Shown here piece after piece: positions 45,801-48,800 of a DNA stretch of 64,000 nucleotides. Source of the stretch: Escherichia coli. Lineage in GTDB: Bacteria; Pseudomonadota; Gammaproteobacteria; Enterobacterales; Enterobacteriaceae. The position numbers were made by a program. Each line of letters opens with the position of its first letter. Position 1 is the first letter of the stretch. The DNA is taken from the NCBI RefSeq assembly GCF_017348835.2, contig NZ_CP071375.1. The stretch is one strand, 5' to 3'.

Positions 45801-48800
45801 ACAATCAGCGCACTTCCCGTTACAGGTCAGAGCATTGACGGTAAATGGCGGAGCCACTCAGGGAACCATTCAGGCAGTGATTAGCATCACTTATACCTAC
45901 AGCTGAACCCGAAGAGATAATTGTAATGAAACGAGTTATTACCCTGTTTGCTGTACTGCTGATGGGCTGGTCGGTAAATGCCTGGTCATTCGCCTGTAAA
46001 ACCGCTAATGGTACCGCTATCCCTATTGGCGGTGGCAGCGCTAATGTTTATGTAAACCTTGCGCCCGCCGTGAATGTGGGGCAAAACCTGGTTGTGGATC
46101 TTTCGACGCAAATCTTTTGCCATAACGATTATCCGGAAACCATTACAGACTATGTCACACTGCAACGAGGCTCGGCTTATGGCGGCGTGTTATCTAATTT
46201 TTCCGGGACCGTAAAATATAGTGGCAGTAGCTATCCATTTCCGACCACCAGCGAAACGCCGCGCGTTGTTTATAATTCGAGAACGGATAAGCCGTGGCCG
46301 GTGGCGCTTTATTTGACGCCTGTGAGCAGTGCGGGCGGGGTGGCGATTAAAGCTGGCTCATTAATTGCCGTGCTTATTTTGCGACAGACCAACAACTATA
46401 ACAGCGATGATTTCCAGTTTGTGTGGAATATTTACGCCAATAATGATGTGGTGGTGCCTACTGGCGGCTGCGATGTTTCTGCTCGTGATGTCACCGTTAC
46501 TCTGCCGGACTACCCTGGTTCAGTGCCAATTCCTCTTACCGTTTATTGTGCGAAAAGCCAAAACCTGGGGTATTACCTCTCCGGCACAACCGCAGATGCG
46601 GGCAACTCGATTTTCACCAATACCGCGTCGTTTTCACCAGCGCAGGGCGTCGGCGTACAGTTGACGCGCAACGGTACGATTATTCCAGCGAATAACACGG
46701 TATCGTTAGGAGCAGTAGGGACTTCGGCGGTAAGTCTGGGATTAACGGCAAATTACGCTCGTACCGGAGGGCAGGTGACTGCAGGGAATGTGCAATCGAT
46801 TATTGGCGTGACTTTTGTTTATCAATAAAAAAATTACAGCGCATTGCTAATGCTGGTACCTGAGGCGCTACGCTATCAGACCTACAAAACCTGCACGTTA
46901 GCCCTTTGTAGGCCAGATAAGACGCGTCAGCGTCGCATCTGGCATAAACAAAGCGCACTTTGCTGGTCTGTTCCCCTCACCCTAACCCTCTCCCCGGAGG
47001 GGCGAGGGGACTGGCCGGGCACATTTTTAGACTTTGTCATCAGTCAGAGCCTGCCAATGGCAGGATCTGGTGTTCTTTTACGCTACCACGCTAATAATCA
47101 GCACAATAATAAGCCCAACCACGGAGTTGACCAGCTCCAGCTGACCCCAGGTTTTCAACGTGTCTTTTACCGACAGGTCAAAGTAACCTTTGAACAGCCA
47201 GAATGAGGCATCATTAATGTGGGTGAGGGTGTTGGAACCCGCAGCCGTCGCCAGCACCAGCAGCGCCGGATTCACGCCAACCAGCTGACCAGTTGCTGGA
47301 TCAAGGATTGCAGCACTGATAATCCCGGCGGCGGTCATCGCCGAAACGACACCCTGACCCGTCGCCAGACGAATTAGCACAGTGATCAGCCATGCCATGA
47401 TGTAGGGCGAGATATTGCCGTGGGACATCAACATGCCGATGGTGTCGCCAATGCCGGTGTCGATGATGGTCTGCTTCAGCACGCCACCCGCACCGATGAT
47501 CAGAATCACCATTGCAATACTCTTCACCGCGCTTTCAAAAGCGTTCATCACCCACTGCATGTCATGACCACGTGCGGTGCCAAAGAGTACGAATGCAACC
47601 ACCATCGCAATAAACATTGCAATCGGCGAGGAACCGATAAAGTTAACCACTTCCCAGGCAGGGGTATCTTTTACCAGCCAGATATTGGCGATGGTGGTAG
47701 AGATCATAATGATCGCCGGGATCAGCGGCACCAGAATCGAAACGCCGAAAGAGGGCAGATTATTCATATCTACCGGTTGATCTGCTTTCAGGAATGATGG
47801 CGTTGGGCGCTCAAGATTGCCGAGGAACTTCGGCAGGATCAGACCTGCGCAGATTACACTTGGGATCGTCACCAGTACGCCATAGATATAAACCATCCCC
47901 ATATCCGCGCCATAAGCATTCACCAGCGCCACCGGACCCGGCTGCGGTGGGAACAGTGAATGTGCGGTAGTGGCAGCTGCTACTGCCGGGATCGCCAGTT
48001 TCAGGAACGGAATTTTAGCTTCGGCGGCAATAACAATAACCAGCGGCGCTAACATGATAAAGGCCACTTCATAGAACATCGCCAGACCAAAAATCAGGCC
48101 GATGATAATCACCGACAGCTGTACATAGCGCAGACCGAGACGCGCCAGCAGCGTATGCGCTATCTGGTGAGCCGCGCCGGAGTCGACCATCAATTTACCG
48201 ATGACCGCACCGAACACCACGATGATAGCCAGTTCCCCCAGCGTGTTGCCGAAGCCCGCTTTCATAGTGTGCAGCAGCGACATCAAATCCATGCCCGCCA
48301 GCATCCCGACGGACAGCGCCGCCACCAACAAAGCCACCATTGAATTGATTTTGAACTTCAAATTCAGTACCAGCATCAGACCAATGCCGAATACCACCCA
48401 GAGAATGTTAAGCACATGCATAACGTTTTACCTTACCTGGTTGAACCGTTGTTATTTTGGGCGACATGTTATGTAAATTGGTCAACCATTGTTGCGATGA
48501 ATGTCACATCCTCTGATCAATAACCATCGATTACCCTTTGCTGCAATTTGCAGCAACAACCATGAGAGTGAAATTCTTGTGATTTGGTTAACCAATTTCA
48601 GAATTCGGGTTGACATGTCTTACCAAAAGGTAGAACTTATACGCCATCTCATCCGATGCAACGCCACGGCTGCGGTCTGGTTGTTCATCCGGATACCTAA
48701 ACAACTCCAGGGTTCCGCGTCTCTTTGCTGTGGAACCCACTATGTGAAAGAGGAAAAATCATGGAACAGACCTGGCGCTGGTACGGCCCAAACGATCCGG

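What the first reader, a model, noticed from the sequence alone, without database searches (positions are those of the whole stretch)
48475..48598. Two UxuR/ExuR-type palindromes between the divergent gntP and uxuA
aaattggtcaaccatt and atTTGGTTAACCAAttt resemble the hexuronate-regulator operator consensus. They sit between the divergently transcribed gntP and uxuAB, consistent with joint repression by UxuR/ExuR.
Basis: partly seen in the sequence, partly recalled or inferred. Interest (0 to 1): 0.25.

Follow-up and report, generated by a model that had tools for sequence, protein, structure and literature searches.

The report
Known UxuR operators between gntP and uxuA
The two short palindromes are real, conserved binding sites for UxuR, the E. 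coli repressor of sugar-acid (hexuronate) genes, sitting in the shared control region of gntP and uxuAB; this is textbook regulation that has already been described.

Summary
The window is E. coli chromosome: fimD-fimH, gntP (-), uxuA, uxuB, uxuR (+). Site 1 is AAATTGGTCAACCATTGT (48475-48492). Site 2 is GATTTGGTTAACCAATTT (48581-48598).

They are not chance. TGGTNNACCA occurs three times in 64 kb (0.61 expected): these two sites and one upstream of uxuR. They are the only matches with four or fewer mismatches to a UxuR 18-mer that works in a reporter.

The 10-bp cores are 95-100% identical between Escherichia and Citrobacter, against 30% for the DNA between them. They are invariant in 12 sampled E. 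coli alleles.

Published genomic SELEX puts the main UxuR peak in this spacer. Deleting uxuR derepresses uxuAB and gntP.

One refinement: both sites have the GT-N2-AC spacing typical of UxuR, not the GT-N3-AC spacing typical of ExuR. An ExuR matrix scores site 2 moderately (15 bits) and site 1 poorly (4.4 bits or less).

I infer that site 1 lies at -16 to -33 of a CRP-dependent gntP promoter, next to a conserved CRP site. Site 2 would be centred near -56 of the uxuA promoter.

Verdict: observation confirmed, interpretation supported, already known, low interest.

The parts
48475..48492 (.). Site 1: UxuR-type operator AAATTGGTCAACCATTGT, core TGGT-CA-ACCA at 48479-48488. Inferred to sit at -16 to -33 of the gntP promoter.
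   Evidence: Core is 95% identical between Escherichia and Citrobacter and invariant in 12 E. coli alleles. ExuR matrix score is at most 4.4 bits.
48581..48598 (.). Site 2: UxuR-type operator GATTTGGTTAACCAATTT, core TGGT-TA-ACCA at 48585-48594. It ends 11 nt upstream of the uxuA -35 hexamer and is centred near -56 by inference.
   Evidence: Core is 100% conserved. The same geometry (operator, 11 nt, TTGACA, 17 nt, GAACTT) occurs in Enterobacter sp. Ag1. ExuR matrix score is about 15 bits, or 10.1 for the K-12 allele.
48493..48508 (.). CRP-type site TGCGA-N6-TCACA (9 of 10 core positions), directly abutting site 1. Its centre at 48500.5 would be -41.5 from the inferred gntP start.
   Evidence: one of only two 9/10 matches in 64 kb, with 0.008 expected per 339 bp. 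13 of 16 columns are invariant across five orthologues. No variation in 12 E. coli alleles. CRP binding itself was not tested.
48466..48471 (-). Inferred gntP -10 hexamer TAACAT, read on the minus strand. Predicted start is near 48459.
   Evidence: Read from the sequence. TAACAT is conserved in Citrobacter, and is TAACGT in two divergent E. coli lineages. The consensus promoter scan did not call it. Inference only.
48610..48638 (+). Inferred uxuAB core promoter: TTGACA (48610-48615), 17 nt, GAACTT (48633-48638). Predicted start is near 48646.
   Evidence: The 48608-48648 block has 33 of 41 invariant columns across Escherichia and Citrobacter. TTGACA-17-GAACTT is also present in Enterobacter sp. 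Ag1. Not called by the consensus scan. The start site was not measured.
48578..48593 (.). Weak CRP-like match TGTGA-N6-TAACC (8 of 10) overlapping site 2. Its status is uncertain.
   Evidence: 0.14 expected per 339 bp. TGTGA is kept in 4 of 5 orthologues, but it is shifted by 1 nt relative to the operator in Enterobacter sp. Ag1.
51528..51545 (.). Third UxuR-type site, TATTTGGTTGACCAGTTT, between uxuB and uxuR. Presumed uxuR autoregulation operator.
   Evidence: [quoted passage not shown] The uxuR promoter GTGCCA-17-TATAGT is listed in PMC3946193.
47078..48421 (-). gntP, annotated as fructuronate transporter in K-12 and as gluconate permease GntP in other records.
   Evidence: NCBIfam equivalog NF007459, 904 bits. 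Annotations.
48761..51486 (+). uxuA (mannonate dehydratase, 48761-49945) and uxuB (fructuronate reductase, 50026-51486).
   Evidence: TIGR00695 at 792 bits and NF011611 at 1127 bits. Annotation.
51701..52474 (+). uxuR, the cognate GntR/FadR-family repressor, encoded 3.1 kb downstream of the operators.
   Evidence: NCBIfam equivalog NF007588, 583.8 bits, full length 1-257.

Best explanation
Both palindromes are operators for UxuR, the GntR/FadR-family repressor encoded 3 kb downstream. Without fructuronate or glucuronate, a UxuR dimer sits on each TTGGT-N2-ACCAA palindrome. When the effector binds the C-terminal domain, UxuR leaves the DNA, and gntP (fructuronate uptake) and uxuAB (fructuronate to 2-keto-3-deoxygluconate) are switched on together. 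Shown here: the sites exist, they are statistically unusual, and they are the conserved islands of the spacer. From published work: UxuR binds this spacer in vitro, and uxuR deletion derepresses both units. Inferred from geometry: site 1 fills the spacer of a class II CRP-dependent gntP promoter (-10 TAACAT, CRP centre at -41.5), so it would block RNA polymerase and possibly CRP. Also inferred: site 2 lies just upstream of the uxuA -35 hexamer, centred near -56. There it would repress by blocking an activator or the polymerase alpha subunit, or by cooperating with site 1, rather than by covering the core promoter. ExuR may also use site 2.
For: Locus identity. Motif statistics. AAATTGGTATACCAATTT placed between -35 and -10 confers UxuR repression that is relieved by fructuronate (PMC8092373). 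Genomic SELEX with purified UxuR gives its main peak in the gntP/uxuA spacer, and glucuronate weakens the binding (PMC5934670). A uxuAB promoter fusion and UxuA protein rise in a uxuR deletion, while an exuR deletion causes no significant proteome change (PMC9369180). gntP and uxuAB are derepressed in a uxuR deletion by RNA-seq (PMC10016265). UxuR-type spacing is GT-N2-AC (PMC4494728). Footprint: site cores are 0.95-1.00 identical between Escherichia and Citrobacter, against 0.30 between the sites. No variation occurs in either core among 12 E. coli alleles that differ at 58 of 339 positions. Even-spaced sites accompany the uxuA genes that have a uxuR homologue nearby in Escherichia, Citrobacter, Enterobacter sp. 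Ag1 and Pectobacterium. Odd-spaced ExuR-type sites accompany the uxuA copies that sit divergent from uxuB with no uxuR detected. The operator-to-promoter geometry is conserved in another genus. A further perfect-core site lies upstream of uidR in K-12.
Against: No base-resolution footprint could be read, because the primary papers are not held. SELEX-chip resolution does not separate the two sites. Transcription start sites are inferred, and the consensus promoter scan called nothing in the spacer. An operator centred near -56 is not a classic steric-repression position, so the mechanism at uxuA is the weakest step. Each site has four mismatches to the 18-mer consensus. The title of a 1981 paper and a 2025 survey implicate ExuR as well, so 'UxuR only' would be too narrow.
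Confidence: 0.9

Rival explanations
1. ExuR, alone or as an ExuR-UxuR heterodimer, is a physiologically important occupant of these sites, so the divergon is truly under dual control.
For: [quoted passage not shown] PMC9369180 summarises cross-regulation and a heterodimer model. PMC11806353 states that the paralogues bind each other's sites and that both repress, with UxuR stronger. The ExuR matrix scores site 2 at 15 bits, within the curated range.
Against: Both sites have N2 spacing, not the N3 spacing of ExuR. The curated E. coli ExuR sites are at uxaB, uxaCA, exuT, exuR and one unlabelled locus, with no b4321/b4322 entry. Site 1 scores at most 4.4 bits. The common K-12 allele of site 2 scores only 10.1 bits. 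An exuR deletion did not significantly change the proteome, whereas a uxuR deletion raised UxuA strongly.
Confidence: 0.35
2. The two operators work as a pair. UxuR bound at both sites interacts across about 10 helical turns, forming a repression loop, which would explain how an operator near -56 silences uxuAB.
For: Core-to-core spacing is 106, 106, 106, 104 and 105 bp in five orthologues, although the intervening sequence is only 30% identical. Enterobacter sp. Ag1 has two operators 102 bp apart flanking the same promoter.
Against: UxuR is described as a homodimer (PMC8092373, abstract), and I found no evidence of tetramers. The sample is five close relatives plus one other genus. Length conservation could reflect the needs of the two promoters. 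Spacings of 102-106 bp are not strictly in phase.
Confidence: 0.2
3. Site 2 is mainly, or also, a CRP site (TGTGA-N6-TAACC) for class I activation of uxuAB, and UxuR represses by displacing CRP.
For: An 8/10 CRP core match overlaps site 2, and its centre at 48585.5 is about -60 from the inferred start. TGTGA is kept in 4 of 5 orthologues.
Against: 0.14 such matches are expected by chance per spacer. Half of the match is simply the UxuR palindrome. In Enterobacter sp. Ag1 the TGTGA is offset by 1 nt, which worsens the CRP match.
Confidence: 0.2
4. The sites belong to another FadR-type regulator with TTGGT/ACCAA half-sites, such as PdhR or LldR, or they are chance palindromes.
For: FadR-subfamily motifs share the TKGT/ACMA boxes (PMC4494728).
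Against: PdhR and LldR are listed among the regulators with 3-nt spacing, whereas these sites have 2 nt. All three window matches sit at uxu genes. The UxuR SELEX peak is here. The conservation footprint argues against chance.
Confidence: 0.03

Closest known systems
UxuR operators of the E. coli hexuronate (Ashwell pathway) regulon, at gntP/uxuAB, uxuR and uidR
   Same: Same organism, locus and motif (TTGGT-N2-ACCAA). The K-12 coordinates of the two sites are 4551350-4551367 and 4551456-4551473. The regulator gene is adjacent. Published SELEX and deletion data apply directly.
   Different: There is no difference in kind. The window strain carries a rare T at 48584 (G in K-12) that lengthens the perfect palindrome of site 2 from 10 to 12 bp and moves it one step closer to the consensus.
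ExuR operators, at uxaCA, exuT, exuR and uxaB
   Same: The repressor is a paralogue and the half-sites are similar (kTkGT / ACmAm). Site 2 and the uxuR-upstream site reach about 15 bits on an ExuR matrix.
   Different: ExuR sites are odd palindromes (GT-N3-AC) and these are even (GT-N2-AC). Site 1 fails the matrix. gntP and uxuA are not among the labelled curated E. coli ExuR sites.
Divergons with two repressor operators and a CRP site, as analysed for GntR-family regulators in PMC4494728
   Same: Two palindromic operators sit in one spacer, each nearer to one of the divergent genes, with a CRP site alongside.
   Different: Whether each site serves only its own promoter or the two cooperate is not established here.

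Membership tests
UxuR operator (GntR/FadR-family, even palindrome) | Inverted TGGT/ACCA half-sites with 2 nt between GT and AC | tested here: met
   TGGTcaACCA at 48479-48488 and TGGTtaACCA at 48585-48594. The spacing rule comes from PMC4494728.
UxuR operator (GntR/FadR-family, even palindrome) | Resemblance to a sequence shown to confer UxuR-dependent, fructuronate-relieved repression | tested here: met
   Each site matches 14 of 18 positions of AAATTGGTATACCAATTT (PMC8092373). They are the only two matches with four or fewer mismatches in 64 kb, against 0.39 expected.
UxuR operator (GntR/FadR-family, even palindrome) | Located in the regulatory DNA of hexuronate genes, with uxuR in the genome | tested here: met
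   The sites lie in the gntP/uxuA spacer and uxuR is 3.1 kb downstream.
UxuR operator (GntR/FadR-family, even palindrome) | Conserved in orthologous regulatory regions while flanking DNA diverges | tested here: met
UxuR operator (GntR/FadR-family, even palindrome) | Direct, effector-sensitive binding of UxuR to these exact bases | not testable with these tools
   Only spacer-level SELEX evidence could be read (PMC5934670). The footprint papers are not held.
ExuR operator (odd palindrome) | 3 nt between GT and AC | tested here: not met
   Both sites have 2 nt.
ExuR operator (odd palindrome) | Matrix score within the range of curated ExuR sites (9.7-24 bits) | tested here: inconclusive
   Site 2 scores 15.0 bits (10.1 for the K-12 allele). 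Site 1 scores at most 4.4 bits.
Class II CRP-dependent promoter (for gntP) | CRP site centred at -41.5 from the transcription start | tested here: inconclusive
   A conserved 9/10 CRP core is centred at 48500.5. The figure of -41.5 depends on a start near 48459 inferred from the TAACAT hexamer, which was not measured.

The most novel reading that the evidence does not exclude
The two operators, held 104-106 bp apart across Escherichia and Citrobacter while the DNA between them diverges to 30% identity, act cooperatively through a UxuR-mediated loop. That would explain repression of uxuAB from an operator near -56. In addition, the rare T48584 allele in this strain tightens site 2 for UxuR and, according to the matrix, for ExuR too.
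Probability: 0.15. Interest if true: 0.3.

Novelty: already known. Interest (0 to 1): 0.08.

Why it matters
It matters little beyond annotation. The result confirms that this window carries the intact, well-studied UxuR control region that couples fructuronate uptake (gntP) to its catabolism (uxuAB). Three details may be useful. First, the sites are UxuR-type by spacing, so ExuR is probably secondary and restricted to site 2. Second, a conserved CRP site abuts site 1 in a textbook class II arrangement. Third, the site 2 allele in this strain is rare and closer to the consensus than the K-12 allele, which could slightly alter basal uxuAB expression.

Tried and rejected
- **Primary papers:** Bates Utz 2004, Suvorova 2011, Robert-Baudouy 1981 and Bouvier 2019 are not held, so published operator coordinates could not be compared directly.
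- **Curated UxuR sites:** the supplement of PMC4494728 is truncated before the UxuR entries. Only ExuR sites were recovered.
- **Literature search by sequence:** searching for the exact site strings found only the consensus 18-mer in PMC8092373.
- **Promoter and terminator scan:** the consensus scan found nothing in 48380-48800. Promoter positions are therefore my reading of conserved hexamers.
- **Rfam:** no RNA family matched the spacer.
- **Possible ExuR-type site in the gntP leader:** TGGTTGAACCG at 48438-48448 has GT-N3-AC spacing, but it does not appear among the top ExuR-matrix hits of the spacer, all other positions scoring below 2.4 bits. I rejected it as an ExuR site.
- **The 19-bp perfect palindrome at 48538-48556:** considered as a third operator and rejected, because it varies within E. 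coli and is absent from Citrobacter.
- **TTGACC inside site 1 as a gntP -35 hexamer:** rejected, because no -10-like hexamer follows at 16-18 nt.
- **Supplements of PMC11806353:** none are held.

Full report
**What the window is.** The region matches 5404 of 5426 complete E. coli genomes at 90% identity or more, and the annotated features under the match are gntP and uxuA. Protein family models identify four genes. GntP is on the minus strand at 47078-48421. Mannonate dehydratase UxuA is at 48761-49945. Fructuronate reductase UxuB is at 50026-51486. The repressor UxuR is at 51701-52474. All four score far above the curated cut-offs, and a matching RefSeq record shows the order fimD-fimH, gntP, uxuA, uxuB, uxuR, yjiC. 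gntP and uxuA are divergent with a 339-bp spacer (48422-48760).

**Checking the observation.**
- Site 1 as an 18-mer is AAATTGGTCAACCATTGT (48475-48492). Only TGGT-CA-ACCA (48479-48488) is a perfect palindrome.
- Site 2 is GATTTGGTTAACCAATTT (48581-48598). It contains a perfect 12-bp palindrome, TTGGTTAACCAA (48584-48595).
- TGGTNNACCA occurs three times in the 64-kb window against 0.61 expected. The third copy (51532-51541) lies between uxuB and uxuR, so all three sit in uxu regulatory DNA.
- AAATTGGTATACCAATTT confers UxuR-dependent repression that fructuronate relieves when placed inside a synthetic promoter (PMC8092373). The two sites are the only matches to it in the window with four or fewer mismatches, against 0.39 expected from first-order Markov simulations.

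**Conservation across species.** I scanned one genome per species for the conserved start of uxuA and used tblastn to find which loci have the E. coli arrangement. These are E. albertii, two Citrobacter species and a divergent E. coli lineage. Their spacers aligned with the window give a clean footprint.

| Segment | Escherichia vs Citrobacter identity |
|---|---|
| Site 1 core | 0.95 |
| Site 2 core | 1.00 |
| Adjacent CRP-type site (48493-48508) | 0.88 |
| Block 48608-48648 | 0.83 |
| 69 nt between the sites | 0.30 |

**Conservation within E. coli.** Twelve alleles sampled across the identity range differ at 58 of 339 positions. None of these fall in either 10-bp core or in the CRP-type site. 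Four fall in the outer flanks of the two 18-mers.

**Published evidence on the regulator.**
- Genomic SELEX with purified UxuR gave its main peak in the gntP/uxuA spacer, and glucuronate reduced the binding. [quoted passage not shown]
- A uxuR deletion strongly raises UxuA, and a uxuAB promoter fusion confirmed a direct effect. An exuR deletion did not significantly change the proteome (PMC9369180).
- RNA-seq shows uxuAB and gntP derepressed in a uxuR deletion (PMC10016265).
- I could not open the papers that mapped the operators. Agreement with published footprints is therefore indirect.

**UxuR or ExuR.** PMC4494728 states that most FadR-type regulators, ExuR included, have 3 nt between GT and AC, whereas UxuR has 2 nt. 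Both sites here have 2 nt.
- That paper's supplement lists E. coli ExuR sites at uxaB, uxaCA, exuT, exuR and one unlabelled locus. A search for b4321 and b4322 (gntP and uxuA) found nothing. The UxuR entries were lost to file truncation.
- I built a position weight matrix from 44-46 distinct curated ExuR 19-mers (the two runs used slightly different de-duplicated lists). Site 2 scores about 15 bits. It and the uxuR-upstream site are the two best hits in the window, but both fall below the training median of 17.5.
- The common K-12 allele of site 2 scores 10.1 bits. Site 1 scores at most 4.4 bits, below every curated site.
- Across Enterobacterales, even-spaced sites accompany the uxuA genes that have a uxuR homologue nearby (Escherichia, Citrobacter, Enterobacter sp. 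Ag1, Pectobacterium). Odd-spaced TTGGTATAACAAC sites accompany the uxuA copies that sit divergent from uxuB with no uxuR detected.
- Both sites are therefore UxuR-type. ExuR may use site 2. This would agree with the title of a 1981 paper on dual control of uxu (reference list) and with a 2025 survey stating that the paralogues bind each other's sites, with UxuR the stronger repressor (PMC11806353).

**How it probably works (inferred).**
- *gntP side.* Directly beside site 1 is TGCGA-N6-TCACA (48493-48508). It is one of only two 9/10 CRP-core matches in the window, with 0.008 expected per spacer, and it is conserved.
- On the gntP strand a conserved TAACAT (48471 to 48466) is a plausible -10 hexamer. 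A start near 48459 would put the CRP centre at -41.5, the class II position, and site 1 at -16 to -33. UxuR there would exclude RNA polymerase and might compete with CRP.
- *uxuA side.* Site 2 is followed by 11 nt and then TTGACA, 17 nt, GAACTT (48610-48638). The same arrangement, with the same 11-nt and 17-nt spacings, is found in Enterobacter sp. Ag1, where the upstream neighbour is unrelated.
- That places site 2 at about -56. This is not a position for simple occlusion of the core promoter.
- Possible mechanisms at uxuA are interference with an upstream activator or with polymerase alpha-subunit contacts, or cooperation with site 1. An 8/10 CRP-like match overlaps site 2 but is weak evidence.
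- The core-to-core distance is 106, 106, 106, 104 and 105 bp in the five orthologues, and 102 bp in Enterobacter sp. Ag1. That is roughly ten helical turns and is compatible with looping, but does not prove it.
- The consensus promoter scan called nothing in the spacer. All promoter positions are my reading of conserved hexamers.

**A strain detail.** K-12 differs from the window at two spacer positions, one of them inside site 2: T48584 in the window is G in K-12. The other 10 sampled E. coli alleles also have G. Only 13 of 5426 genomes share the window's exact 61-mer across site 2. Citrobacter has T and E. albertii has A at this position. The usual E. coli site has a 10-bp perfect core.

**Verdict.** The feature is already known biology in the best-studied bacterium, so interest is low.

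Noticed in passing
window 48493-48508: A strong, conserved CRP-type site (TGCGATGAATGTCACA, 9 of 10 core positions) directly abuts site 1. 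Its centre would be -41.5 from the inferred gntP start.
   Followed up: partly
window 48584: The T that makes site 2 a perfect 12-bp palindrome is rare. K-12 and the other 10 sampled E. coli alleles have G, and only 13 of 5426 complete genomes share the window's 61-mer. The T allele raises the ExuR-matrix score from 10.1 to about 15 bits and removes one mismatch to the UxuR consensus.
   Followed up: partly
window 48538-48556: A perfect 9+1+9 palindrome, TTGCTGCAATTTGCAGCAA, lies midway between the two operators. It varies within E. coli and is absent from Citrobacter, so it is probably not a conserved protein-binding site.
   Followed up: partly
window 48649-48727: About 79 nt of the uxuA leader are present in Escherichia but absent from Citrobacter. 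The segment folds into two hairpins, but the fold is not clearly better than shuffles (z = -1.9), and there is no Rfam match.
   Followed up: partly
window 51528-51545: A third UxuR-type site, TATTTGGTTGACCAGTTT, lies upstream of uxuR. It sits about 24 nt upstream of the -35 hexamer of the published uxuR promoter (GTGCCA-17-TATAGT), so this operator too lies upstream of the core promoter.
   Followed up: partly
window 48438-48448: TGGTTGAACCG lies in the gntP leader and has GT-N3-AC spacing. It is a perfect TGGTTGAACCA in Citrobacter. It does not appear among the top ExuR-matrix hits of the spacer, so its conservation may reflect the translation start region instead.
   Followed up: partly
L066 7205-8770; L128 (strain ET201): A divergent E. 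coli lineage lacks gntP. In L066 a nanM (N-acetylneuraminate epimerase) gene sits where gntP would be, yet site 1 and the CRP site are retained, so nanM may have come under the gntP promoter. Strain ET201 also has no gntP annotated beside uxuA.
   Followed up: partly
L013, L014, L018, L027, L030, L031, L045, L056, L074, L081, L085, L102 (upstream of uxuA): Many Enterobacteriaceae carry a uxuA arranged divergently from a distant uxuB (57-60% identity), with no uxuR detected in the fetched locus. These have conserved odd-spaced ExuR-type sites about 30 nt and 160 nt upstream of uxuA (for example TTGGTATAACAACTT). Both Citrobacter species carry this copy in addition to the E. coli-like one.
   Followed up: partly
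L123 7165-7182 (K-12 1697164-1697181): Another even-spaced site with a perfect core, AAATTGGTTAACCAATAG, lies upstream of uidR in K-12. This is consistent with UxuR control of the glucuronidase locus.
   Followed up: no
window 48422-48760: Two papers treat uxuA and gntP as OxyR-linked promoters (PMC3578941, PMC7617757). I saw no convincing OxyR motif by eye and ran no scan for one.
   Followed up: no
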